DNA of 64,000 nt from the NCBI GenBank assembly GCA_964016885.1, contig OZ024757.1:31248001-31312000 (forward strand). The letters are read 5' to 3'. Source of the stretch: Eledone cirrhosa (Eukaryota). Made by a program: the position numbers and the translations under genes. Every line of letters starts with the position of its first letter. Within the stretch, counting starts at the first letter, position 1. The notes beneath the pieces were generated by a model. The model made no database searches, was not told where the DNA came from, and saw only the letters and a program-made list of their open reading frames with translations. This document shows, piece after piece, positions 1,128 through 60,699 of the stretch.

Positions 1128-6352
<5,225 letters not shown>

Positions 6353-9120: not shown

Positions 9121-9181
9121 AACAGTTCGGATCTAACTGTTGAAACGGTCGGAGCTCAGCTGTCGGGGTCCTGACTCTTTT

Positions 9182-9185
<4 letters not shown>
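9121..9185. mobile_element. Family A fragment (one arm plus central stem)
   Basis: AACAGTT-loop-AACTGTT GAAACGGTCGGAGCTCAGCTGTCGGGGTC...TCCTA. Confidence 0.7.
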
Positions 9186-9225
<40 letters not shown>

Positions 9226-10085: not shown

Positions 10086-10360
10086 TGGGACTGGCTTTGT
10101 GCAGTGCCTTTGCTCACTATAAAAGCTTCACAGCACAGGCATTGCTTTATATCTGGAGATCTCTCTGCACTTGTCGTCACGTGTTACCATGGGCCCAGCA
10201 CTATGTGTCAATAATTGTCACAAGTGTAGGGTTTGTACAAGAGTTTTCAAGTCGCTGGCTGGACTAAAAAGTCACACTCGTTCAGCGCATCGGTAGGGGT
10301 TCTCCTACACGGATATAAAGTAGTGGCCGTACTCGAAAACGAGTTGGCAGCCACCATGTA
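10086..10360 (+). mobile_element. Family R retroposon 3' part with (ATGT)n-like tail
   Basis: ~270 bp highly similar to the reverse complement of 63388-63660; ends GCAGCCACCATGTA. Confidence 0.75.
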
Positions 10361-15081: not shown

Positions 15082-15161
<80 letters not shown>

Positions 15162-15163
<2 letters not shown>

Positions 15164-15339
15164 GGAACCAGTAAGACCCCGACAGCTGAGCTCAAGCCGT
15201 TTCGACGGCTAATTCGTCGAAACGGCTTGAGCTCAGCTGTCGGGGTCCTACTCGTTCCTATTACCCACTCTACTACCTCAAGTATTGAGTACTTTGGTGC
15301 GTTATGGTCCACCTGGTTCCTTACCACATTTCCTTCGTT
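15162..15339 (+). mobile_element. Family A copy 3
   Basis: Long hairpin plus tail, in (TA)n. Confidence 0.85.
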
Positions 15340-15480
15340 ATATATATATACATATACAGTGAGAGATAGTGAGGGATATATATAATGAAATACCAATGAC
15401 CGTTGGCAAATCACTGATGAGGGACTCATTTTATAACATGTTATCCATGTGAAACCATGCAGTATTCTTCTCCCCATATT

Positions 15481-16361: not shown

Positions 16362-16533
16362 TTGACAAGTTCGGCTATTTATTCACCAGGCTAAAAATTC
16401 TAATTTAGTCCAGAAATAGCCGTCGAAACGGCTTGAGCTCTGCTGTCGGGGTCATCCTTTTTCCTATTACCGACTCTACTGAATACTCTGGTGCATTATG
16501 GTCCATCTGGTTCCTTACCACAATTCCTTCGTT
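16362..16533 (+). mobile_element. Family A copy lacking the inverted arm (possible ancestral, unfolded form)
   Basis: TTGACAA GTT CGGCTATTT...AAATAGCCG TC GAAACGGCTTGAGCTC, then family A tail. Confidence 0.65.
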
Positions 16534-17104
16534 ATATGTATATATATACATATATATATATGAATATATATATATATGAATATATATATGTATATATATG
16601 TATATGAATATATATATGTATATGAATATATATATGTATATGAATATGTATATGAATATATATATATGTATATGAATATATATATATATATATGAATACT
16701 ATACTCTTTCACTGGAATTTAGACATCAACTCGGTAGTTGTATGCATCTCTGCATGCATGCGCGCGTGTGGATGTGTAATTTTGAGTTAGATGTGTGCAT
16801 GTACATATGTTTTGTATCTGTACATGTGTACATGCAGTTATTACATGAATGTATGTATGCATATATATATGTGTGTGTATGTATGCATATATATATATGT
16901 GTGTGTGTATATATACATGTATTTATATATATATGAGAGAGAGAGAAGTTGGAAATAGCATGGAAAATATATTTTAGGGTCTTTTTTCTCTTTTTTCCTT
17001 TCTTTGATTCGTCAAAGTGACATTGAAAAAATGAGAGGGACAATTCTTTTAAAAAGGAGTTTTATAAAGTATATAAAATATATAAAGTATATAAAGTATA
17101 TAAA

Positions 17105-21744: not shown

Positions 21745-22163
21745 TGAAAAAATAAGGCCGGATTTCAAATATATTTTTAATGTTACAGAATCATGATACA
21801 TATTTCCATAGCTAACAAGCCCAAGTCATCAGACCATGGCGCACGGCATATGGCGACGTCTTCAGGTGTTATTCGCATAAAAAGATAAAGTAATCAGTTA
21901 CTGGATTACAGCAAAACATAAACAAAGAATTGATATGGAGGCAGACTTTCAATTATTGCTCCCCCAGTGACAGGTCGCAATTACCGCCTCCGTGTTAATT
22001 CTTTGTTTATGTTTTGTTGTAATCTTTTTATGTGAGTAATACCTGAAGATGTCGCCATATGTCTTACGTCATAACTTGATGAGGTGGGCCTGTCTGCCAT
22101 AGAAATACGTATCGAGATTTTGTAACATTAAAAGAATATTTGTAATACAGCCTTGTTTTTTCA
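21745..22163. mobile_element. Long diverged inverted repeat with an outward-facing HHR-like motif in each arm
   Basis: Arms 21745-21942 and 21986-22163; minus CTGATGA..GAAA TATG TA at 21791-21838; plus TTGATGA..GAAA TACGTA TC at 22076-22113. Confidence 0.7.
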
Positions 22164-22164
22164 T

Positions 22165-22221
<57 letters not shown>

Positions 22222-22225
<4 letters not shown>

Positions 22226-22414
22226 AAAAGAGTCAAGACCCCGACGGCTGAGCTCCGGCCGTTCCGACAGCTGGATCCAAACTAGCTGTCGAAACGGCGG
22301 AGCTCAGCCGTCGGGGTCTTGACTCTTTTCCTATTACCCACTCTACTACCCTAAGTATCGAATACTCTGGTGCTTTATGGTCCTCCTGGTTCCTTACCAC
22401 ACTTTCTTTGCTTT
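22222..22414 (+). mobile_element. Family A copy 5
   Basis: GGAAAAGAGTCAAGACCCC...GGGGTCTTGACTCTTTTCC plus tail, in (TA)n. Confidence 0.85.
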
Positions 22415-22419
22415 ATATA

Positions 22420-24472: not shown

Positions 24473-24536
<64 letters not shown>

Positions 24537-24580
24537 GAAATAAACCAAAGAAGCCTTCAATACATCAAAAGTCTTTATTA

Positions 24581-24618
24581 GCCAACAATGTTTCGTCATA
24601 TTAAGGACTCATCAGGGC
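24581..24618 (-). ncRNA. Minimal HHR motif (H4, left arm)
   Basis: GCC CTGATGA GTC CTTAATAT GAC GAAA CATTG TT GGC; GUU triplet. Confidence 0.75.
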
Positions 24619-24797
24619 AAGTAAAGCTATAAGAAGCACTATCGGCCAATAGAAGCCATGTAATATGGTTCAAAATGTTATTCACTTCCTTAGCAATTTT
24701 TACTTGATAATTTTCCTATGCTTTAATGTATGTATACTCCATATTCTTCTGAGGTTTTGGCTTGTATTGGCCGATAGGGCTTCTTATAGCTTTACTT

Positions 24798-24835
24798 GCC
24801 CTGATGAGTCCTTAATAGGACGAAACATTGTGGGC
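24798..24835 (+). ncRNA. Minimal HHR motif (H4, right arm)
   Basis: GCC CTGATGA GTCC TTAATA GGAC GAAA CATTG TG GGC; triplet is GUG (non-NUH). Confidence 0.7.
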
Positions 24836-24983
24836 TAATAAAGACTTTTGATGTATTGAAGGCTTCTTTGGTTTATTTCTTAATTCTTCGGCTCTGTTTA
24901 ATTACATTGAGCTATACCTTTACTCTCATTTCTATAATATGAAGAGGGTGTTTAACTCCAACACACTCTAGTATTTTAATTCT

Positions 24984-27219: not shown

Positions 27220-27221
<2 letters not shown>

Positions 27222-27409
27222 CGAAGGTAATGTGGTAAGGAACCAGGTGGACCATAACGCACCAAAGTACTCAATACTTAGGGTAGTAGAGTGGGTAATA
27301 GGAACAAGTAAGACCCCGACGGCTGAGCTCAAGCCGTTTCGACGGCTAATTCTGTACTCAAATTAGCCGTCGAAACGGCTTGAGCTCAGCCGTCGGGGTC
27401 TTACTTGTT

Positions 27410-27414
<5 letters not shown>
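27220..27414 (-). mobile_element. Family A copy 6 (perfect 54-bp arms, 9-nt loop)
   Basis: 27298-27351 is the exact reverse complement of 27361-27414; tail on the left; (TA)n on both sides. Confidence 0.9.
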
Positions 27415-27651: not shown

Positions 27652-27673
27652 GTATATATGAATGTATATATGC

Positions 27674-27712
<39 letters not shown>

Positions 27713-27727
27713 TATATATATATATAT

Positions 27728-29122
27728 TTCAAAAAGGGAAACAAATCCCTTGCCGTGAATTACCGTCCAATCTCACTCACCTCTCATATCATTAAGGTAT
27801 TTGAGAGAGTGGTGAGATCGCGAATGACCCACTTCCTTGAGAGTAACAATATGCTGAACTCCAACCAGCATGGATTCCGTAATGGAAGGGATTGCCTGAC
27901 GCAGCTACTGCATCACTTTGATGACATTTTGAGAGCCTTGGGAGAGGGTTCCAACACTGATGTTATCTACCTTGATTTCAGCAAGGCCTTTGACAGGGTT
28001 GATCATAACATTCTAATGAGAAAGCTGTCCAATATTGGTGTCACTGGAAAGCTACTGCAGTGGATCAAGAGCTTCCTGTCAAATAGAACCCAACATGTTG
28101 TAGTTGAAGGAGTCAAATCCAGCCCAGCCAAAGTCAGTAGTGGGGTCCCACAAGGCACTGTGTTGGGCCCACTTCTCTTCATCATCTATATTAATGACAT
28201 CACTGACATCATCAAACACAGCAACATTAAAATTTTCGCTGATGATTCCAAGCTCCAAAAGGTCATCAATGGCGTGGATGACCGGATAAGCCTTCAGTCA
28301 GACCTACTGGCTGTTACCCAATGGGCGGAAAAGAACAACATGTTACTGAACGAAGACAAATTCGAACTGATCCACTTTGGAAAAGAGGATGTTCTGAAAC
28401 TCCCGTACTCCCTTCCCTCCGGGGAAACTCTCGTGGCATCTAACAACATCAGAGACTTGGGAGTAACCGTGGACAGCAACATAAGCTGGGCCACGCATAT
28501 AAGCAGCAAAGTTGACATGGCCCGCAGAATGTGTTCCTGGATCCTCAGAACCTTCCAGTCGAGAGATTCCCACACCATTATCCTTCTCTTCTCTACTTTT
28601 ACCCGACCACACCTTGAATACTGTTGTCCACTGTGGTCTCCCCACACGAAACAAAGTATCATGAAACTTGAAGCTCCTCAAAGGGCAATCACGAAAAAGA
28701 TAGATGGCATGTCAGACCTTGACTACTGGGGTCGACTAGAAAACCTGAAACTTTACTCACTCCAACGTCGCCGTGAGCGTTATATTATCTGCATGATGTG
28801 GAAAATGTTCCATCATCACTGCCCAAATGATGTTGGCATCGCCTTCAAGATACACCCAAGGCTTGGGCCCCGTGCTATCCGTCCCATTCAAAAATCTAAA
28901 TCGCAACTCATAACAACAATACGGCACAATTATTTCACCTCAATCGGCCCTGCTCTCTTCAAAATCACACCAGGACACGTCAAAACAGAAACTGACCACA
29001 CAAAATTCAAGAAGTCTTTGGACAAATTCCTCCATGTAATCCCGGACAAACCACCCACACCCGGATATGTCTCCGCAAACAGTAATTCTCTTCTCGAATG
29101 GGCCATGGTGCCCAAATCCTGA
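27728..29122 (+). CDS. Reverse transcriptase of a 5'-truncated CR1-group non-LTR retrotransposon (no start codon)
   Basis: Uninterrupted ~464 codons: [66 protein letters not shown]. Confidence 0.93.
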
Positions 29123-29628: not shown

Positions 29629-29680
<52 letters not shown>

Positions 29681-29681
<1 letters not shown>

Positions 29682-29868
29682 CGAGGGAAAAGTGGTAAGG
29701 AACCAGGTGGACCATAAAGCACCAAAGTACTCAATACTTAGGGTAGTAGAGTGGGTAATAGGAGTAAGTAAGACCCCGACGGCTGAGCTCAAGCCGTTTT
29801 GACGGCTAATTCTGTACTGAATTAGCCGTCGAAACGGCTTGAGCTCAGCCGTCGGGGTCTTACTTACT

Positions 29869-29872
<4 letters not shown>
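29681..29872 (-). mobile_element. Family A copy 7
   Basis: Near-perfect hairpin GGAGTAAGTAAG.../...CTTACTTACTCC plus tail. Confidence 0.9.
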
Positions 29873-29908
<36 letters not shown>

Positions 29909-30376: not shown

Positions 30377-30531
30377 CGAAATATATATGTATGTATATGG
30401 AAAGTTATATTTAAATTGTTGGGTTAACAACGAGTAAATATTTATAACTGATATAAAAGCACTCAACAAGTATTTGGAGTATATTTATGATATTAAATAA
30501 ATGGAAACTATATTTATAAAACCATATTTAT

Positions 30532-30591
30532 TTCGTTATATATATTTCAGGGATATCATATTAACAATATGTTATGCCATCTTCAGACAAA
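30532..30591 (-). ncRNA. Minimal HHR motif (H3-like)
   Basis: TTTGT CTGAAGA [imperfect long stem II] GAAA TATATA TA ACGAA. Confidence 0.6.
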
Positions 30592-31119: not shown

Positions 31120-31340
31120 ATGGTGGATTGGCAATATCGGCAGAGGGTCGGACGCCATGTTTTGTGGTATAGAGTTACGGCCCTTTATGATCTGAGTTCA
31201 AATCCTGCCGAGGTTAACTTTGCCTTTCATCCTTACGAGATCGATAAACTAAAGTACCAGTCACGCACTGGGGTCGATTTAATTGACTTTCCCCTCCCCC
31301 AATTTTGCTGATCTTGTGCCTATATAAGAAGACATTATTA
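31120..31340 (+). mobile_element. SINE S1, full length
   Basis: GTGGATTGGCAATATCGG..GAGTTCAAATCC head, core and tail. Confidence 0.85.
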
Positions 31341-31688
31341 AATAACTGATTTTGAAAAGTCCCAGGAACGTGATGAAACGTTCGTAAATCAGCATATAAT
31401 GTATTAATTGTATTTGTCTATTTTGTAGGTGTCTGTTTTAATGAATAATTTGCTTCTAGTGTAATTGTTATTTTTAGCACGATAGAATTTTGTGTACATG
31501 CCTTTCTGGAAAATTCTTTCAAAGGAGTATTATGCATAGCCTTTTATATTGCTTGTATAATAAATTAGTCTATTTTGAGCTGTGTTTAACTTCTCCACCT
31601 ATCTTTAGAACTTGTTTATATTGTTTTTGTAAAAAACGATATTTATTTCCTGTAGAAGCCATTTCTATATTAAACATATAGAAATGGC

Positions 31689-31737
<49 letters not shown>

Positions 31738-31941: not shown

Positions 31942-32241
31942 CATATATATATATACACACAGTTCAAGAGTAAACCAATCTTAAATATAGAGATGGAGAT
32001 AGGAGAGGAGAAGAGAGATTGGTGAAGGTATTATAAGCCAAAAGCTTAGAGGCGTGTGCTCAATGTGCAATATGCAGTGGGAAGCAGCTAGAGAACTGGG
32101 TTCATGCAGAGATTAGGTGCACAGAGCTCGAAATATTCATTAGTTAAGCAAATCAAGACGACAAAATTCACATGGAAGACGTTAGTTAAAGAGTGTCAGC
32201 ATTAGTTGCAGTTTAATGTAAAGAATAAAGAGTGCTAACAT

Positions 32242-32760
32242 TAATTGTTTCTACTTTAGGCACAAGGCCAGCAATTACCCAGTGCATTACTGGTACTTTA
32301 TTTTATCGACCCCGTCAGGATGAAAGGCAAAGTCAACCTCGGCGGGATTTGAACTCAGATCGTAAAGGGACGTAACTATGTTAGAAAGCATGGCGTCTGA
32401 CTCTCTACCAATACTGCCAATATTATTATTATTATTATGGTGTGGATTGGCAATATCGGTAGAGGGTCGGACGCCATGCTTTGACGCATAGAGTTACGGC
32501 CCTTGCCATTCTGAGTTCAAATCCCACCGAGGTTAACTTTGCCTTTCATTCTTACGGGGTCGATAAAATAAAGTACCAGTAATGCACTGGGTAATTGCTG
32601 GCCTTGTGCCAAAAGTAGAAACAATTATTATTATTATTCCTTACAAATCCCACCGAGGTTAACTTTGCCTTTCATCCTTACGGGGTCGATAAAATAAAGT
32701 ACCAGTAATGCACTGGGGTAATTGCTGGCCTTGTGCCTAACGTAGAAACAATTATTACTA
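32242..32760. mobile_element. Head-to-head SINE S1 pair (minus 32242-32421, plus 32440-32638) and an extra 3' half
   Basis: Reverse-complement match across a short (ATT)n spacer. Confidence 0.85.
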
Positions 32761-34183: not shown

Positions 34184-34377
34184 TAGGAAAAAGTATGACC
34201 CCGACGGCAGAGCTCAAGCCGTTTCGATGGCTATTTCTGGTCCAGAATTAGCCATCGAAACGGCTAGAGCTCTGCCGTCGGGGTCATACGTTTTCCTATT
34301 ACCCACTCTACTACCCCAAGTATTGAGTACTCTGGTGCGTTATGGTCCATCTGGTTCATTACCACAACTCCTTCGTT
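34184..34377 (+). mobile_element. Family A copy 8
   Basis: Hairpin plus tail, in (TATC)n. Confidence 0.85.
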
Positions 34378-34389
34378 ATCTATCTATCG

Positions 34390-35537: not shown

Positions 35538-35800
35538 TCTCTCTCTTTCCACTCTCTCTCTCTCTGTCCTCTCTCTCTTTCCACTCTCTCTCTCTCCCTC
35601 TCTTTCCTCTCTCTCTCCCAATACTGCCAATCCACCACTCCTTTAACCTCTTAATAATGGCACAGCGTTAATGGTAAGGGCTGCAATGGATTTGAGCTGA
35701 CCTGGGGCTAGATAACAGCAAAAAAAAACCAACAATAACAATGTGAAATGCATACGTTGTGTTGGAATGTACGAAATCTATATCTCATACATAAATATAT

Positions 35801-35971
35801 AACGCACGGACCATAACGCACCAGAGTACTCAATACTTAGGGTAGTAGAGTGGGTAATAGGAAAATGTTTGAATCCGACAGCAGAGCTCAAGCCGTTTCG
35901 ACGGCTATTTCTGGACAAAAATAGCCGTCGAAACGGCTTGAGCTCTGCCGTCGGGGTCAAACATTTTCCTA
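35801..35971 (-). mobile_element. Family A copy 9 (tail partly deleted)
   Basis: GGAAAATGTTTGA...TCAAACATTTTCC hairpin. Confidence 0.85.
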
Positions 35972-36074
35972 TATATATATATATATAGTATTCTATGTAC
36001 TATACATGCACCTTTGATGAATTGTAGTACACTTGAGCACTGTACACAATTTCATTATTATTATTGTTGTTATT

Positions 36075-36283
36075 ATTGGCAGTATTGGTAGAGGGTCGGA
36101 CGCCATGCTTTGACGTATGGAGTTACGGCCCTTGCCATTCTGAGTTCAAATCCCGCCAAGGTTAATTTTGCCTTTCATCCTTACGGGGTCGATAAAATAA
36201 AGTACCAGTAATGCACTGGTACTTTATTTTATCGACCCCGTTGGCCTTGTGCCTAACGTAGAAATAATAATTATTATTATTAT
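36075..36283 (+). mobile_element. SINE S1 with internal 26-bp perfect fold-back (36184-36240)
   Basis: CGGGGTCGATAAAATAAAGTACCAGT AATGC ACTGGTACTTTATTTTATCGACCCCG. Confidence 0.85.
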
Positions 36284-36370: not shown

Positions 36371-36546
36371 TATCCCGGGTTCAATCGGAGGTACCCACAG
36401 TAAGTAAGGTACTCAATACATAGCAGAGTATAAATGTTTAATATAGAAATGGCTTCTACAGGACTTGAACTGTTTCATTCGAAGGAAACCATCAGGAAAA
36501 CCTTCGAATGAAACAGTACTAGTCCTGTAGAAGCCATTTCTATATT
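36371..36546 (-). mobile_element. Hairpin-plus-tail family B (relative of family A)
   Basis: Arms 36440-36485 and 36501-36546 with GTTTC..GAAAC core; tail shares ACTCTGCTA and GTATTGAGTAC with family A; arm fragments at 31649-31693 and 50944-50964. Confidence 0.75.
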
Positions 36547-36622: not shown

Positions 36623-36640
36623 TTTATTAAAATATCAGAA

Positions 36641-36822
36641 GGGTGGTGGATTGGCAGTATGGGTAGAGGGTCGGACGCCATGCTTTCCAGCATAGTTACG
36701 TCCCTTTACGATCTGAGTTCAAATCCCACCGAGGTTTACTTTGCTTACGGGGTCGATAAAATAAAGTACCAGTAATGCACTGGGTAATTGCTGCCCTTGT
36801 GCCTAAAGTAGAAACAATTATT
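36641..36822 (+). mobile_element. SINE S1
   Basis: As the other S1 copies. Confidence 0.85.
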
Positions 36823-37915: not shown

Positions 37916-38686
37916 GTGATGGTGGTGGTGGTGGTGGTGGTACAGTGGTGGTGGTACAGTGGTGGTGGTAGTGGTGGTGGTTGTGGTGGTACAGCGGTTG
38001 TGGTGGTGGTACAGTGGTGGTTGTGGCGGTACAGTGGTGGTGGTACAGTGGTGGTACAGTGGTGGTGGTTGTGGTGGTACAGTGCTGGTGGTGGTGGTAC
38101 AGCGGTGGTTGGGGTGGTTGTGGTGGTTGTGGTGGTACAGTGGTGGTGGTGGTACAGTGGTGGTTGTGGTGGTACAGTGGTGGTGGTGGTACAGTGGTGG
38201 TGATGGTGGTACAATGGTGATTGTGGTGGTACAGTGGTGGTTGTAGTTCAGTTGAGGTGATGGTCGTCGTACAGTGATGGTGGTGGTGTGTGGTGGTGGG
38301 GGTTGCAACACTACGACCAACACTAACAACAACATCAGCACCACCAACACCGCTAACAACAGCACCACCAACATACAACATAACACCAACATCACCACCA
38401 ACACCAGCAACATCACCAATACTACCATCACTAACACCACCACCACCATAAACACCACCGCCACCATCAACAACACCACCACTATCACCAACAACAACAA
38501 CAACAGCACCAACCTCCACCACCATCACCAATAACAACACAACACCACCACCATCATTAACAAAAGCACAACACCCCCGCAAGCACCACCACCACCAACA
38601 ACGACACAACACCACCACTAACACCATAACCATCACCAACAACACCACCACCACCAACAACAACAACAACACAACCACCAACAACA
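37916..38686. repeat. (GGT)n/GGTACA block facing a (CCA/CAA)n block
   Basis: Direct inspection. Confidence 0.9.
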
Positions 38687-41600
38687 GGTGGACAGAGGGA
38701 CAGACTGGCTGGTGGACAGAAGGACTGACAGACTGACAGACAGACAGAACGACTGGCTGGTAGACATACTGACAGACAGATAGAACGACTGGCTGGTAGA
38801 CAGACTGACAGAACGACTGGCTGGTAGACAGACTGACAGACAGACGGAACGACTGGCTGGTGGACAGACTGACAGAACGACTGGCTGGTAGACATACTGA
38901 CAGACAGACAGAACGACTGGCTGGTGGACAGACTGACAGAACGACTGGCTGGTAGACATACTGACAGACAGATAGAACGACTGGCTGGTAGACAGACTGA
39001 CAGACAGACGGAACGACTGGCTGGTAGACAGACAGAACGACTGGCTGGTAGACAGACTGACAGACAGACAGAACGACTGGCTGGTAGACAGACTGACAGA
39101 CAGACGGAACGACTGGCTGGTAGACAGACAGAACGACTGGCTGGTAGACAGACTGACAGACAGACAGAACGACTGGCTGGTAGACAGACAGAACGACTGG
39201 CTGGTACACAGACTGACAGACAGACGGAACGACTGGCTGGTGGACAGACAGACGGAACGACTGGCTGGTGGACAGACAGGCAGAACGACTGGCTGGTAGA
39301 CATACTGACAGACTGACAGAACGACTGGCTGGTGGACAGACAGGCAGAACGACTGGCTGGTAGACAGACTGACAGACAGACGGAACGACTGGCTGGTAGA
39401 CAGACAGAACGACTGGCTGGTAGACAGACAGAACGACTGGCTGGTAGACAGACTGACAGACAGACAGAACGACTGGCTGGTAGACAGACTGACAGACAGA
39501 CGGAACGACTGGCTGGTGGACAGACAGGCAGAACGACTGGCTGGTAGACATACTGACAGACTGACAGAACGACTGGCTGGTAGACATACTGACAGACAGA
39601 CAGAACGACTGGCTGGTGGACAGACTGACAGAACGACTGGCTGGTAGACATACTGACAGACAGATAGAACGACTGGCTGGTAGACAGACTGACAGACAGA
39701 CGGAACGACTGGCTGGTAGACAGACAGAACGACTGGCTGGTAGACAGACTGACAGACAGACAGAACGATTGGCTGGTAGACAGACTGACAGACAGACGGA
39801 ACGACTGGCTGGTAGACAGACAGAACGACTGGCTGGTAGACAGACTGACAGACAGATAGAACGACTGGCTGGTAGACAGACTGAACGACTGGCTGGTAGA
39901 CAGACTGACAGACAGACAGAACGACTGGCTGTTAGACAGACTGACAGACAGACGGAACGACTGGCTGGTAGACAGACAGAACGACTGGCTGGTAGACAGA
40001 CTGACAGACAGATAGAACGACTGGCTGGTAGACAGACTGACAGACAGACAGAACGACTGGCTGGTAGACAGACAGAACGACTGGCTGGTAGACAGACTGA
40101 CAGACAGACAGAACGACTGGCTGGTAGACAGACTGACAGACAGACGGAACGACTGGCTGGTGGACAGACAGGCAGAACGACTGGCTGGTAGACATACTGA
40201 CAGAACGACTGGCTGGTGGACAGACAGGCAGAACGACTGGCTGGTAGACATACTGACAGACAGACAGAACGACTGGCTGGTGGACAGACTGACAGAACGA
40301 CTGGCTGGTAGACATACTGACAGACAGATAGAACGACTGGCTGGTAGACAGACTGACAGACAGACGGAACGACTGGCTGGTAGACAGACAGAACGACTGG
40401 CTGGTAGACAGACTGACAGACAGACAGAACGACTGGCTGGTAGACAGACTGACAGACAGACGGAACGACTGGCTGGTAGACAGACAGAACGACTGGCTGG
40501 TAGACAGACTGACAGACAGATAGAACGACTGGCTGGTAGACAGACTGACAGACAGACAGAACGACTGGCTGGTAGACAGACAGAACGACTGGCTGGTAGA
40601 CAGACTGACAGACAGACAGAACGACTGGCTGGTAGACAGACTGACAGACAGACGGAACGACTGGCTGGTAGACAGACAGAACGACTGGCTGGTAGACAGA
40701 CTGACAGACAGAACGACTGGCTGGTAGACAGACTGACAGACAGACGGAACGACTGGCTGGTAGACAGACTGACAGACAGATAGAACGACTGGCTGGTAGA
40801 CATACTGACAGACAGATAGAACGACTGGCTGGTAGACAGACTGACAGAACGACTGGCTGGTAGACAAACTGACAGACAGATAGAACGACTGGCTAGTAGA
40901 CAGACTGACAGACAGACAGAACGACTGGCTGGTAGACAGACAGAACGACTGGCTGGTAGACATACTGACAGACAGATAGAACGACTGGCTGGTAGACAGA
41001 CTGACAGACAGACGGAACGACTGGCTGGTAGACAGACAGAACAACTGGCTGGTAGACAGACTGACAGACAGACAGAACGACTGGCTGGTAGACAGACTGA
41101 CAGACAGACGGAACGACTGGCTGGTAGACAGACAGAACGACTGGCTGGTAGACAGACTGACAGACAGACGGAACGACTGGCTGGTGGACAGACAGGCAGA
41201 ACGACTGGCTGGTAGACAGACTGACAGACAGACGGAACGACTGGCTGGTGGACAGACAGAACGACTGGCTGGTAGACAGACTGACAGACAGACGGAACGA
41301 CTGGCTGGTAGACAGACAGAACGACTGGCTGGTAGACAGACTGACAGACAGACGGAACGACTGGCTGGTGGACAGACAGGCAGAACGACTGGCTGGTAGA
41401 CATACTGACAGAACGACTGGCTGGTGGACAGACAGGCAGAACGACTGGCTGGTAGACATACTGACAGACAGACGGAACGACTGGCTGGTAGACAGACAGA
41501 ACGACTGGCTGGTAGACAGACTGACAGACAGACGGAACGACTGGCTGGTGGACAGACAGGCAGAACGACTGGCTGGTAGACATACTGACAGACAGACGGA

Positions 41601-43595
41601 ACGACTGGCTGGTAGACAGACAGAACGACTGGCTGGTAGACAGACTGACAGACAGACGGAACGACTGGCTGGTGGACAGACAGGCAGAACGACTGGCTGG
41701 TAGACATACTGACAGACAGACGGAACGACTGGCTGGTAGACAGACAGAACGACTGGCTGGTAGACAGACTGACAGACAGACGGAACGACTGGCTGGTGGA
41801 CAGACAGGCAGAACGACTGGCTGGTAGACAGACTGACAGACAGACGGAACGACTGGCTGGTGGACAGACAGAACGACTGGCTGGTAGACAGACTGACAGA
41901 CAGACGGAACGACTGGCTGGTGGACAGACAGGCAGAACGACTGGCTGGTAGACATACTGACAGACAGACGGAACGACTGGCTGGTAGACAGACAGAACGA
42001 CTGGCTGGTAGACAGACTGACAGACAGACGGAACGACTGGCTGGTGGACAGACAGGCAGAACGACTGGCTGGTAGACATACTGACAGACAGACGGAACGA
42101 CTGGCTGGTAGACAGACAGAACGACTGGCTGGTAGACAGACTGACAGACAGACGGAACGACTGGCTGGTGGACAGACAGGCAGAACGACTGGCTGGTAGA
42201 CATACTGACAGACAGACGGAACGACTGGCTGGTAGACAGACAGAACGACTGGCTGGTAGACAGACTGACAGACAGACGGAACGACTGGCTGGTGGACAGA
42301 CAGGCAGAACGACTGGCTGGTAGACATACTGACAGAACGACTGGCTGGTGGACAGACAGGCAGAACGACTGGCTGGTAGACAGACTGACAGACAGACGGA
42401 ACGACTGGCTGGTGGACAGACAGGCAGAACGACTGGCTGGTAGACATACTGACAGAACGACTGGCTGGTGGACAGACTGACAGAACGACTGGCTGGTAGA
42501 CATACTGACAGACAGACAGAACGACTGGCTGGTGGACAGACTGACAGAACGACTGGCTGGTAGACATACTGACAGACAGATAGAACGACTGGCTGGTAGA
42601 CAGACTGACAGACAGACGGAACGACTGGCTGGTAGACAGACAGAACGACTGGCTGGTAGACAGACTGACAGACAGACAGAACGACTGGCTGGTAGACATA
42701 CTGACAGACAGACGGAACGACTGGCTGGTGGACAGACTGACAGAACGACTGGCTGGTAGACATACTGACAGACAGACGGAACGACTGGCTGGTAGACAGA
42801 CAGAACGACTGGCTGGTAGACAGACTGACAGACAGGCAGAACGACTGGCTGGTAGACATACTGACAGACAGACGGAACGACTGGCTGGTGGACAGACTGA
42901 CAGAACGACTGGCTGGTAGACATACTGACAGACAGACGGAACGACTGGCTGGTAGACAGACAGAACGACTGGCTGGTAGACAGACTGACAGACAGGCAGA
43001 ACGACTGGCTGGTAGACATACTGACAGACAGACGGAACGACTGGCTGGTGGACAGACTGACAGAACGACTGGCTGGTAGACATACTGACAGACAGACAGA
43101 ACGACTGGCTGGTGGACAGACTGACAGAACGACTGGCTGGTAGACATACTGACAGACAGACGGAACGACTGGCTGGTAGACAGACTGACAGACAGACGGA
43201 ACGACTGGCTGGTAGACAGACAGAACGACTGGCTGGTAGACAGACTGACAGACAGACAGAACGACTGGCTGGTAGACAGACTGACAGACAGACGGAACGA
43301 CTGGCTGGTAGACAGACAGAACGACTGGCTGGTAGACAGACTGACAGACAGACAGAACGACTGGCTGGTAGACAGACTGACAGACAGACGGAACGACTGG
43401 CTGGTAGACAGACAGAACGACTGGCTGGTAGACATACTGACAGACAGATAGAACGACTGGCTGGTAGACAGACTGACAGAACGACTGGCTGGTAGACAGA
43501 CGGAACGACTGGCTGGTAGACAGACTGACAGAACGACTGGCTGGTAGACAGACTGACAGACAGACGGAACGACTGGCTGGTAGACAGACTGACAG
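38687..43595. repeat. 4.9-kb modular satellite: GAACGACTGGCTGGT(A/G) plus a variable number of GACA/GACT/TACT/GGCA tetramers (24-36 bp units)
   Basis: Highly homogeneous tandem units; source of the 1695, 1250 and 708 aa artefact ORFs. Confidence 0.97.
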
Positions 43596-43610
43596 TATAT
43601 ATATATATAC

Positions 43611-43735
43611 CGAATGAAGTGTGGTAAGGAACCAGGTGGACCATAACGCACCAGAGTACTCGATACTTTGGGTAGTAGAGACATTGCTGTCGAAACGGCT
43701 TGAACTCTGCCGTCGGGGTTCTGACTCTTTTGCTA
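43611..43735 (-). mobile_element. Family A copy 10 (one arm deleted)
   Basis: Tail GTGGTAAGGAACCAGGTGGACCATAACG joined to GTCGAAACGGCTTGAACTC. Confidence 0.8.
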
Positions 43736-43783
43736 TATATATATATAAAACTATATATTTATATATAATATATATCTATATCT

Positions 43784-45059: not shown

Positions 45060-47525
45060 ATCGAACTTAAATTTGACAGATTGATTGGTTATAGCTCCAA
45101 ATGTTTTTATTTACGACCTTTTTACATTCTGAATTCAAACCCTGCCGACGTCAACTTTGCCTTTCTTCTGAGGACGATAAAATAAAGTACCAGTCATGTA
45201 CTTGGGTCGATTTAGCCAACTTTATACCTTCCCCCATATTTGCAGGCCTTATACCTAAATCAGAAACCAGTATGAGTTCCAACATAAAGGGTTTGGGGCA
45301 GAATTGGTAGGGATAGGTCAGATAAAATACAGTTGAAGTCCGAGTACTTGTTCTCTTGCCTTTTACATTCTGAGTTCAAATCCCGTCGAGGTCAACTTTA
45401 CCTTTCATCTTTCAAGGGACGGGGTTCGATAAAATAAAGTACCAGTCACATACTGGGGTTGGTTTAACGTACTTTATACCCCTCTTCCATATTTGCTGGC
45501 CTTATGCCTTAATCAGAAATAAATATAAAGGGATTGGGGCAGAATTGGTGAGGGTAGGTCTGATAAAATGCCATTGAAGTACGATTATTTTTTATTTTGC
45601 TCTTTACATTCTGAGTTCAAATGCCTTTCATCTTTCGGGGAGGTGAGGCGTCGATAAAATAAAGTACCAGTCATGTAGTGGGTCGATTTAACGAACTTTA
45701 TACCTTTCTTCCATATTTGCTGGCCTTATGCCTAAATCAGAAATCAACATAAATGGGACGGGGTTCTATAAAATAAAATACCAGTCACATACTGAGGTGG
45801 GTTTAACGTACTTTATACCTTTCCTCAACATTTGTTGGCCTTATGCCTAAATCAGGAATAAATATAAAGGAATTGGGGCAGAATTGGTGGGATGTGGTAG
45901 ATCAGATAAAATACAATTGAAGTATGATTATTTTTTCTCTTGTTCTCTACTTTCTGAGTTCAAATCCTGTCGAGGTCAACTTTGCTTTTCTTCTTTGAAG
46001 GGACAGGTGTTCTTTAAAATAAAGTACCAGTCACATACTGAGGTGGGTTTAACGTACTTTATACCTTTCTTCTACATTTGCTGGCCTTATGCCTAAATCA
46101 GGAATAAATATAAAGGAATTGGAGCAGAATTGGTGCGATGGGGTAGATCAGATAAAATACAATTGAAGTACAATTATTTTTTCTTTTGCTCTCTACGTTC
46201 TGAGTACAAATCTTACCGAGGTTAACTTTGCCTTTCATCTTTCAGGAAGGTGAAGTGTCGATAAAATAAAGAACCTGTCGTGTACTGGAGTCGATTTAAT
46301 CAACTTTATATCTTTCCTTCACATTTGCTGGCCTTATGCCTTATCCAGAATTCAGTATAAATGGTTTGGAGCAGAATTGGTAAGGGTAGGTCAGATAATA
46401 TACAATTGAAGTACGATTATTTTTTTCTCTTGCTTTCTACATTCTGAGTTCAAATCCTGTCGAGGTCGACTTTGTCTTTCGTCTTTGAAGGGACGGTGTT
46501 TGATTAAATAAAATAATAGTCACATACTGGGGTTGGTTTAACGTACTTTATACCCCTCTTCCATATTTGCTGGCCTTATGCCTAAATCAGAAATAAATAT
46601 AAATGGTTTAAGGCAGAATTGGTGGGATGGGTAGGTCAGATAATATACAATTGAAGTACGATTATTTTTTTCTTTTGCTCTCTACATTCTGAGTACAAAT
46701 CTCGCAGAGGTTAACTATGCATTTCATCTTTCAGGAAGGTGAAGTTTCGATAAAATAAAGTACCAGTTATGTAGTGGGGGTCGATTTAACCGACTTTATA
46801 TCTTTCCTGCATATTTGCTGGCCTAATGCCTACATCAGAATTAGTGGTGGTGGTATGGGTAGGTCAGATAATATACAATTGAAGTACGATTATTTTTTCT
46901 TTTGCTCTCTACATTCTGAGTACAAATCTCGCAGAGGTTAACTATGCATTTCATCTTTCAGGAAGGTGAAGTTTCGATAAAATAAAGTACCAGTTATGTA
47001 GTGGGGTCGATTTAACCAACTTTATATCTTTCCTGCATATTTGCTGGCCTTATGCCTACATCAGAATTAGTGGTGGTGGTAAGGGTAGGTCAGATAATAT
47101 ACAATTGAAGTACGATTATTTTTTTCTTTTGCTCTCTGAATACAAATCTCACCGTGGTCAACTTTGCTTTTCGTCTTTGAAGGGACGGGTGTTCTTTAAA
47201 ATAAAGTACCAGTCACATTCTGAGGGTGGGTTTAATCAACTTTATACCTTTCCTCTACATTTGTTGGCCTTATGCCTTAATCAGAATTGGTGCGATGAGG
47301 CAGGTCAGATAAAATACAATTGAAGTACAATTATTTTTTCTTTTGCTCTCTACATTCTGAGTACAAATCCTGTCGAGGTCATCTTTGAAGGGACGGAGGG
47401 GTGGGGTTCTATAAAATAAAGTACCAGTCACGTACTGGGGTCCATGCAAATGAATTCTCCCCCCCCCCCCCACAAAAAAAATCAACAAAATTCCTGACCT
47501 TGTTCTTAAAATAGAAACCATTATT
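45060..47525 (+). repeat. Tandem array of about 11 diverged SINE S1-related monomers (mostly ~220-250 bp)
   Basis: Repeated ACATTCTGAGTTCAAATC..GAGGTCAACTTTGCC..ATAAAGTACCAGTC..GCTGGCCTTATGCCTAAATCAG. Confidence 0.9.
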
Positions 47526-48123: not shown

Positions 48124-48269
48124 AATAAACGAAGCTAAATTTTAATCATTTGACTTTTATTTAACTTTATTTTACACTACTCCGGAGTAACCAAACCAAC
48201 CTGCGCACTTCGTCGAGTGCTACAGCCTGCATACTGAGGTGTTGGTACACAACCAACATAAACTCAAAA

Positions 48270-50005: not shown

Positions 50006-51320
<1,315 letters not shown>

Positions 51321-60116: not shown

Positions 60117-60258
60117 TAGTTCGCATCTAGCTGCCGAAACGGTCGGAGCTCAGTCGCTGGGGTCCTGACTCTTTTCCTATTACCCACTCTTCTACCCCAA
60201 ATATCAAGTACTCTGGTGTGTTATGGTCCACCTCGTTTCTTACCTCACTTTCTTTGTC
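60117..60258 (+). mobile_element. Family A copy 11 (single arm plus tail)
   Basis: GAAACGGTCGGAGCTCAG...TACCCACTCT...CTTACCTCAC. Confidence 0.8.
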
Positions 60259-60699
60259 ATATATATATATATATATATATATATACAAAGGGCGGATCAT
60301 GTTGATGCCACTTGAGTATCACTGAGAAACACCATATTTTATCATCCAACGTTCAACTACGAAAATTAAGTAGATTAGATAAATGAAAAGCGATTTATTT
60401 TCGAACTACTGACACATGGCACAATGCTTGGAGAATTTAAGAGAGGGACGCTTGATGACAAAGAGGTTATATATCACTCAAGCTCCTGTAACTGATGCTG
60501 TCAATTGTTTTCACAGTCACCAGTTTGCACAGATCTTTCTTCGTCCTATCTAAAAGTGTGGAGGTGGTGTGAGCTATCCAAGGAGTGTTTCCGGCATGTC
60601 TGGGAGCAATGTGAAGTATTTTCTGGACGTAAAGAGACAAGCTAGTAATAGCAGCAACAACAACAGCAGCAGCAGTATTAACACACGTTCTTAGTATAG

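What the first reader, a model, noticed from the sequence alone, without database searches (positions are those of the whole stretch)
36371..36546. Family B: independent hairpin-plus-tail element retaining a clear HHR 3' half
Seen: ~46-bp arms around ATTCGAAGG-loop-CCTTCGAAT, followed by GAAAC AGTACT A GTC, which reads as stem III with a palindromic loop and a GUC triplet. The tail shares ACTCTGCTA and GTATTGAGTAC with family A although the arms differ. An arm junction in the opposite arrangement lies at 31649-31693. Inference: the same architecture exists in a second lineage, and the shared tail motifs may be the cis signal for the RT or endonuclease.
Basis: partly seen in the sequence, partly recalled or inferred. 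Interest (0 to 1): 0.7.

Follow-up and report, generated by a model that had tools for sequence, protein, structure and literature searches.

The report
Penelope stub with shared tail hairpin
This 175-base mirror-image repeat is likely the cut-short end of a Penelope-type jumping gene; its family carries a complete predicted self-cutting RNA motif, and its tail shares with three other families nearby a small predicted hairpin that likely tells the copying enzyme where to start.

Summary
The hairpin and tail are real: 46-bp arms with 44 of 46 pairs, z = -12. The hammerhead was misread. The element reads on the minus strand, and the hairpin loop holds the missing 5' box, CTGATGG here and CTGATGA in 96-99% of family depth in four runs. 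Family B therefore has a complete type-I hammerhead with a 4-bp stem III and a GUA site. AGTACT is a minority state. Copies end at two fixed sites about 65-68 nt apart, while inner junctions vary. This fits a truncated Penelope-like (PLE, probably Hydra-clade) end plus an inverted copy, not a fixed mini-element. The two tail motifs shared with family A are two strands of one bulged hairpin. That hairpin recurs with paired changes in two more families here and in a published coral Hydra element, 5-15 nt beyond the inverted-arm end. It is a likely reverse-transcriptase start signal, untested. No coding partner could be sought. The scan noted this architecture and hairpin before on other pieces of this genome.

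The parts
36372..36546 (-). Whole family-B insertion: inverted arm, then hammerhead piece, then tail; element sense is the minus strand; sits in a (GT)n tract
   Evidence: Loose ends in other copies cluster at 36372-36373 and 36436-36437 and at 36545-36546.
36440..36502 (-). Sense piece of the pseudo-LTR with a complete type-I hammerhead layout
   Evidence: Read consensus upstream of 36501 is GGCTTTCCTGATGATTT in all four runs but one letter in X11.
36496..36502 (-). Predicted stem I, 5' strand; its outermost 2 nt are shared with the inverted arm (2-nt junction microhomology)
   Evidence: 36500 is G in most of the few records that cover it.
36489..36495 (-). Hammerhead 5' core box; this copy CTGATGG, family CTGATGA
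   Evidence: 36489 C>T in 2133 of 2221 reads (X10) and in 97-99% of contig depth in X1, X2 and X5.
36477..36488 (-). Predicted stem II: U.U opposition, 3-bp stem, variable 4-nt loop
   Evidence: Variants concentrate at 36481-36484, and loose-end consensuses show other loops on the same stem.
36457..36476 (-). GAAA box, 4-bp stem III (ACAG/CTGT) with 8-nt loop, predicted GUA cleavage site after 36457
   Evidence: The same stem III is in 4 of 25 Hydra-clade families of PMC8557442 File S2, 3 of them with GUA.
36451..36456 (-). Predicted stem I, 3' strand (GAAGCC)
36501..36546 (+). Inverted 5'-truncated copy of the same pLTR; lacks the 5' box and the tail; ends at the proximal end site
36372..36439 (-). 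One-sided tail, 68 nt
36411..36429 (-). Predicted bulged tail hairpin, ACTC-TGC-loop-GTA-TT-GAGT, shared with families A, C and D
   Evidence: Loop positions 36420-36422 vary in reads, and 36424 varies between G.U and A-U.
31648..31693 (.). Two short family-B arm ends joined tail-to-tail (28 nt and 18 nt), next to (TA)n; origin unresolved
50944..50964 (+). 21-nt family-B stub in (TA)n, ending at the proximal site and starting within 4 nt of the predicted ribozyme cut
24531..24972 (+). Family C fold-back with two intact hammerhead cores; tail hairpin GCTC-TGT..ACA-TT-GAGC at 24891, 5 nt beyond its arm end
   Evidence: Rfam Hammerhead_HH9 match at E 0.0022, below the gathering score.
30462..30586 (-). 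Family D hammerhead with tail hairpin ACTC-CAA..TTG-TT-GAGT at 30480; a sister copy (24190) stops 15 nt before the hairpin

Best explanation
Element B is likely the ORF-less end of a Penelope-like retrotransposon (probably Hydra clade): a short sense piece with a predicted hammerhead and a tail, joined head-to-head to an inverted shorter piece, likely made at insertion. Mechanism I commit to: (1, inferred) the element's GIY-YIG endonuclease cuts both strands of a microsatellite; (2, inferred from PMC11167929; the end clustering is shown) its RT starts internally on the RNA at two sites about 65-68 nt apart, one cDNA per cut strand, and the stretch between the sites is the tail; (3, the variable junctions are shown, their cause is inferred) both cDNAs stop early near the hammerhead and are joined with little or no microhomology; (4, conservation is shown, function is inferred) the bulged hairpin 5-15 nt downstream of the proximal site is the RNA signal that positions the RT. 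The hammerhead is a passenger of the pLTR and is likely dead in this copy (A9G). Odds per step: PLE stub 0.9; two primings 0.6; hairpin as start signal 0.45.
For: A complete hammerhead at family level in 4 runs from 3 organism labels. Its layout matches published Hydra-clade hammerheads: U.U at the base of stem II in 14 of 25 families, and the same stem III in 4 of 25 (counted by eye). There are two end clusters. This copy's junction position 36500 is covered by 10 reads against 3555 on the arm (X11), and by about 0.1% of arm depth in X1 and X2. Of the 13 opposite-strand joints shown (15 of 57 joints shown), 7 have one side at 36421-36439, inside or at the edge of the tail, and the other at 36480-36499. 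If inverted arms end at the proximal site, the inverted piece there holds sequence the tail piece lacks, which snap-back cannot make. The hairpin pattern hits 9 sites against 0.45 in shuffles (maximum 3 in 100). Seven hits are A and B copies used to design the pattern; the two out-of-sample hits (C, D) both lie 68-69 nt behind a hammerhead GAAA box and have different, fully paired inner stems. Hydra-2_Amil has GCTC-TAC..GTA-TT-GAGC about 56 nt behind its GAAA. An inverted truncated copy plus tail is the known PLE layout, and two internal RT starts define the tail in vitro.
Against: No RT or endonuclease ORF is linked to B: there is none in the window, no genome is held, and two collection scans were blank. 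The clade therefore rests on RNA motifs alone. Rfam finds no hammerhead in this copy, and the hammerhead fold is not its minimum-energy fold (stem pair probabilities 0.01-0.27). G10.1-C11.1 is absent. The tail hairpin is weak (-2.9 to -6.8 kcal/mol); in B only its outer stem forms in the predicted fold, and an A tail folds otherwise as a whole. Several other hammerheads in the window show no such hairpin behind them, and Hydra-1_Amil and Hydra-1_Crog match only loosely. This copy alone also fits a 2-bp snap-back. Joint positions 36480 and 36499 may be alignment limits, and hairpins are under-represented in reads and contigs. In family A the left arm is strictly closest to its own right arm in only 4 of 7 copies (2 ties, 1 worse). 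The tail is about twice the published 30-40 bp.
Confidence: 0.65

Rival explanations
1. Same PLE origin, but one cDNA folds back on itself (self-priming) and the endonuclease trims the second strand at the proximal site; the tail hairpin is then an endonuclease or resolution signal.
For: This copy's geometry allows it: 2-nt CC/GG pairing with a 15-nt loop. Self-priming was proposed in PMC3846280. The Drosophila Penelope tail was needed for endonuclease recognition, as cited in PMC11167929.
Against: 7 of 13 shown opposite-strand joints pair a tail-only piece with a piece reaching the hammerhead, with no shared letters. Two internal RT starts match the tail ends in vitro. Paired changes and a G.U pair point to a single-stranded structure rather than a double-stranded DNA site.
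Confidence: 0.2
2. B is a stereotyped non-autonomous element (MITE- or SINE-like) that is copied as a whole hairpin-plus-tail unit, the first reader's 'independent lineage'.
For: Short uniform size, no ORF, high copy number. Read consensus upstream of the hammerhead decays just beyond GGC in X1, X2 and X11.
Against: The exact junction is in 0.1-0.3% of arm coverage; at least 13 and 7 different opposite-strand joints are shown. Some copies run further upstream (X5, X6, X10). A one-sided tail and a hammerhead are not features of DNA transposons (own knowledge).
Confidence: 0.08
3. B is a monomer of a non-LTR retrozyme (tandem hammerhead units, circular RNA).
For: Type-I hammerhead. A few head-to-tail joints exist (2 shown, 2). 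Retrozymes are reported to derive from PLE pLTRs.
Against: Retrozymes are defined as tandem units that each carry a hammerhead; this copy is single and head-to-head, and the letters between the head-to-tail joints show no 5' box.
Confidence: 0.04
4. The tail hairpin is only inherited sequence, or has a role unrelated to priming (RNA 3'-end formation, stability), and its position near the end site is incidental.
For: Weak folding energy; spacing to the end site varies from 5 to 15 nt; absent behind several hammerheads. No second copy was seen beyond B's distal end, where the data stop.
Against: The stems covary while the arms are unrelated (p 0.71). Its distance to the end site (5, 8-11, 5, 15 nt) is tighter than to the GAAA box (47-69 nt).
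Confidence: 0.3

Closest known systems
Insertion units of endonuclease-bearing Penelope-like elements (PMC8557442, passages; PMC3846280, passages)
   Same: 5'-truncated copy with an adjacent inverted truncated copy, head-to-head; tail at one end only; hammerhead in the pLTR; microsatellite target.
   Different: Here only about 130 nt of the element's end is present; the tail is 65-68 nt (A 78, C about 87) against 30-40 bp; no ORF seen.
Hydra clade of PLEs (PMC8557442 section 11 and supplementary Files S1, S2 and some consensus ends)
   Same: Hammerhead with 4-bp stem III, often U.U at the base of stem II; ACAG/CTGT stem III with GUA in three members; bulged hairpin behind the hammerhead in Hydra-2_Amil; microsatellite insertion.
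   Different: B has an 8-nt loop III (published members 1-3 nt). This copy lies in (GT)n, not (TA)n. B is not Hydra-1_Obim: its marker words were not found in that file. The protein features were not testable.
Poseidon element of the green anole, PAc (PMC11167929, parts 1-2 of 4 of the text)
   Same: Two internal RT start sites bounding the tail, both target strands extended, hammerhead dispensable and protein-assisted.
   Different: [quoted passage not shown] Different clade; nothing is shown biochemically for B.
Minimal PLE hammerheads (PMC4209133, passages) and non-LTR retrozymes (bioRxiv 10.64898/2026.07.22.740005, part 1 of 5)
   Same: Type-I hammerhead in dispersed PLE remnants; pairs on opposite strands were already noted in Schistosoma.
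   Different: B has a 4-bp stem III rather than a minimal palindromic one, lacks G10.1-C11.1, and is not tandem.

Membership tests
EN+ PLE insertion | Inverted 5'-truncated copy adjacent to the sense copy | tested here: met
EN+ PLE insertion | One-sided tail (published 30-40 bp) | tested here: met
   Present, with two end clusters, but 65-68 nt long.
EN+ PLE insertion | Hammerhead motif in the pLTR | tested here: met
   Family majority letters give both boxes and three stems.
EN+ PLE insertion | RT plus GIY-YIG ORF upstream in full-length copies | not testable with these tools
   No genome held. Of 114 window ORFs, one has an RT match, which reads as LINE-type by eye. Scans blank.
EN+ PLE insertion | Target-site duplication | tested here: inconclusive
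   Both flanks are (GT)n; a 14-nt stretch matches at 12 positions across the insert.
Hydra clade | Protein motifs (RWK, DKT, CxCX5C, no CCHH) and RT phylogeny | not testable with these tools
   No protein for B; features.
Hydra clade | Insertion in (TA)n | tested here: inconclusive
   This copy lies in (GT)n. Tail-flank consensus is (TA)n in X2 and GT-rich in X1 and X10. The two B stubs abut (TA)n.
Hydra clade | Canonical hammerhead with paired stem III | tested here: met
Type-I hammerhead ribozyme | CUGANGA and GAAA boxes, UH site | tested here: met
   Met for the family; this copy carries A9G.
Type-I hammerhead ribozyme | G10.1-C11.1 pair | tested here: not met
   U.U instead, as in 14 of 25 Hydra-clade families.
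Type-I hammerhead ribozyme | Match to an Rfam hammerhead model | tested here: not met
   This copy: no hammerhead match up to E 10 and none at gathering scores.
Type-I hammerhead ribozyme | Self-cleavage | not testable with these tools
   Needs an assay.
Non-LTR retrozyme | Tandem units, each with a complete hammerhead | tested here: not met
   Single head-to-head insertion; head-to-tail joints are rare among those shown.
MITE or fixed non-autonomous unit | Uniform internal structure across copies | tested here: not met
   Junctions vary; this one is in 0.1-0.3% of arm coverage.

The most novel reading that the evidence does not exclude
A clade-wide structured RNA element, a 4+3 bp hairpin with a UU bulge, conserved from coral to this animal across families with unrelated pLTR sequences, is the template-positioning signal of Hydra-type PLE reverse transcriptases. 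It would set internal start sites, and so the tail and the mirror-image ends, much as telomerase RNA structure sets its template boundary.
Probability: 0.4. Interest if true: 0.68.

Novelty: new variant of a known kind. Interest (0 to 1): 0.4.

Why it matters
The insertion layout is known, so B itself is one more PLE family. How PLE reverse transcriptases choose internal start sites and build inverted ends is open, and the papers read here say so. A short covarying hairpin at a near-fixed distance from the copy end gives a concrete mutational test, and thousands of varied junctions allow twin priming to be tested against snap-back. PLE RTs are the sister group of telomerase, so a structural start signal would bear on that link. 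I did not find the hairpin described in searches, which cover open-access PMC and bioRxiv only. Repbase reports and subscription papers were not searched.

Tried and rejected
The whole genome is not held, so there is no genome-wide consensus, copy count or search for a coding partner. Exact 25-nt pattern scans of metagenome and viral contigs found 0. No RNA holder was listed, which is no evidence on expression. Rfam gave nothing at gathering scores; the E-value runs gave generic miRNA-hairpin matches below threshold (best 150 of 339 seen) and no hammerhead for this copy. The repeat finder was swamped by microsatellites. MAFFT misaligned the hairpins of B and C, so no covariance model or formal pair count was made; covariation was read from the pattern scan. 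The first family-A arm comparison mis-parsed one copy and was redone; both gave 4 of 7. The by-sequence and nearby look-ups of scan notes found nothing. A second hairpin beyond B's distal end could not be examined. Only parts of the PMC8557442 supplement were seen (part 2 of 59 and search hits); supplements of the other papers were not opened, and those of the preprint are closed.

Full report
Setting. The window is microsatellite-rich animal DNA. Its SINE-like repeats look cephalopod to me (recalled, not tested), and scan notes on the same genome point that way. No whole genome is held.

Observation. Arms 36440-36485 and 36501-36546 are 46 nt each with two mismatches, around a 15-nt loop. The fold is far beyond shuffles on either strand (z -12.7 and -12.4). 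In the orientation of family A (hairpin, then tail) the element reads on the minus strand. GTATTGAGTAC is shared with six A copies, while ACTCTGCTA is exact in one. The B tail aligns to 6 of 7 A tails better than shuffles (p 0.0002-0.006; seventh 0.27), while the arms do not (p 0.71).

The hammerhead was misread. On the minus strand the hairpin loop contains CTGATGG at 36489-36495. I laid 36371-36500 on four runs (13320, 12935, 208 and 8229 records). Position 36489 is T in 2133 of 2221 raw reads and in 97-99% of contig depth, which gives CTGATGA. A second laying on the right arm, with two of the same runs and two new ones, shows GGCTTTCCTGATGATTT as the loose-end consensus before 36501 in X1, X2 and X6, and one letter off in X11. 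The A at 36518, which makes AGTACT, is T in 3146 of 3555 reads and in 92-99% of contig depth. The register that closes all three stems has ACAG/CTGT as stem III, an 8-nt loop with a central CTAG, a GUA site (cut after 36457) and GAAGCC as the 3' strand of stem I. The GUC register has no stem I partner. Stem II opens with U.U, not G-C, and its 4-nt loop varies among copies. In File S2 of PMC8557442, 14 of 25 Hydra-clade families have this U.U and 4 have this stem III (counted by eye, with one family listed twice counted once). Against: Rfam gives no hammerhead match for this copy, and the fold is not favoured in prediction. PLE hammerheads are reported as weak or protein-assisted.

B is not a fixed unit. 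Copies end at two sites: loose ends cluster at 36372-36373 (tail end) and at 36436-36437, mirrored at 36545-36546 (inverted-arm end). The inner junction varies. Position 36500 is covered by 10 reads against 3555 on the arm, and by about 0.1% of arm depth in two contig sets. One search shows 15 of 57 joints, 13 of them between opposite strands and all different; one search shows 7 more. Seven of the 13 join a piece that stops at 36421-36439 to a piece that reaches 36480-36499. If inverted arms end at the proximal site, the first piece must be the tail-bearing one, and the inverted piece holds sequence it lacks. That needs a second priming on the RNA. Caveats: the far ends of those pieces are not shown, 36480 and 36499 may be alignment limits, and hairpins are depleted in libraries and assemblies. 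This copy alone, with a 2-nt CC/GG overlap, fits either model. Its two arm differences (36466, 36518) are each minority states and are not mirrored, as expected for changes after insertion. In family A the left arm is strictly nearest its own right arm in 4 of 7 copies, tied in 2 and not nearest in 1, which is modest support.

The shared tail. The two words are the strands of one hairpin: ACTC, 3 bp, loop, 3 bp, TT bulge, GAGT. A pattern for this shape hits 9 sites in the window against 0.45 in 100 shuffles (maximum 3). Seven hits are the A and B copies it was drawn from. The other two are independent: family C (24891; GCTC/GAGC, TGT/ACA) and family D (30480; CAA/TTG), 69 and 68 nt behind hammerhead GAAA boxes. 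The coral element Hydra-2_Amil ends with GCTC-TAC..GTA-TT-GAGC; Hydra-1_Amil and Hydra-1_Crog match only loosely, and the ends shown for Hydra-1_Obim and Hydra-1_Ajap stop too soon to tell. In B reads the loop varies and one inner pair switches between G.U and A-U. The hairpin starts 5 nt (A), 8-11 nt (B), 5 nt (C) and 15 nt (D, from a sister copy) beyond the proximal end. Its energies are small (-2.9 to -6.8 kcal/mol), and only the outer stem forms in B's predicted fold. Of the 13 hammerhead-like cores listed, a relaxed pattern found it behind two (B and C). Several of those cores are cut short by microsatellite or are probably chance, and D's intact core was not in that list.

The 31648-31693 junction. 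It joins a 28-nt and an 18-nt B arm end tail-to-tail. The usual layout is head-to-head; PMC3846280 notes that self-priming at a sense 3' end would give tail-to-tail. An insertion into the AT-rich end of an older copy, followed by loss, is my preferred guess; it is unresolved. The 18-nt piece and the stub at 50944 begin within 2-4 nt of the predicted cut, and those letters could belong to the flanking microsatellite. One shown joint lies at 36457. A minority of copies may thus derive from ribozyme-cut RNA; the numbers are too small to rely on.

Mechanism. Shown: the anatomy, the family-level hammerhead sequence, two end sites, variable junctions and the covarying hairpin. From the literature: PLE insertions carry an inverted truncated copy and a tail. 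In the anole element the protein cuts and extends both strands, RT starts internally at two sites that bound the tail, and the hammerhead is dispensable. Inferred: B stubs arise when both cut ends of a microsatellite prime on the same RNA at the two sites, stop near the hammerhead and are joined, and the bulged hairpin positions the RT. The main rivals are snap-back with endonuclease trimming, and an unrelated role for the hairpin.

Comparison and novelty. B works like, and has the DNA features of, an EN+ PLE insertion. Membership of the Hydra clade is suggested by RNA motifs, but its defining protein features were untestable: no PLE ORF was recognised among 114 window ORFs, and two scans were blank. 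It fails the tests for a retrozyme and for a fixed MITE-like unit. The longer tail and the conserved hairpin are not in the papers found by searches. Papers seen: PMC8557442 (passages, section 11, supplement part 2 of 59 and search hits), PMC11167929 (parts 1-2 of 4), PMC3846280 and PMC4209133 (passages), bioRxiv 10.64898/2026.07.22.740005 (part 1 of 5); the rest as listings only. Earlier scan notes gave me the Hydra, bulged-hairpin and twin-priming leads; they are unchecked AI notes, and the claims above rest on my own calls.

Verdict. A real element of a known kind, with a corrected hammerhead and a supported, structural tail motif of untested function. Interest 0.40.

Noticed in passing
window 5498-5690, 15161-15342, 16400-16540, 22221-22415, 27220-27414, 29680-29873, 34184-34380, 35800-35972, 43600-43742, 60128-60265, 9139-9186: At least 11 family-A copies or fragments, mostly in (TA)n; the hairpins turn inside a palindromic stem II and lack the 5' box; tail about 78 nt.
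   Followed up: partly
window 9491(-), 18643(-), 23869(+), 24190(+), 24615(-), 24801(+), 30586(-), 43964(-), 48074(+): Further hammerhead-like cores from several unrelated families, many ending at (TA)n; 48074 may carry a long-loop version of the tail hairpin near 48180-48220.
   Followed up: partly
window 21745-22163: A diverged fold-back (about 69% arm identity) with a hammerhead-like core at 21832(-) and a degenerate mirror copy.
   Followed up: no
window 27662-29122 (+): 486-aa ORF with an RVT_1 match (E 6.5e-32), LINE-type by eye, flanked by family-A copies.
   Followed up: partly
window 36070-36270, 36640-36820, 31200-31340, 45850-46600, 32236-32633: Copies of an abundant SINE-like repeat, some in tandem and some folded back on themselves (36183-36241, 32236-32633).
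   Followed up: no
window about 38600-43730: A 5-kb GC-richer satellite of short repeated units with long open frames, next to a truncated family-A copy at 43600-43742.
   Followed up: no
window 10123-10293 (+): Short frame with a weak C2H2 zinc-finger match (E 3.5e-4, below the Pfam cut-off).
   Followed up: no
table 5c and table 5c (runs X1, X2, X10): Rare head-to-tail B-like units of about 70-80 nt with recurring spacer letters and no visible 5' box; could be a small satellite derived from B.
   Followed up: no
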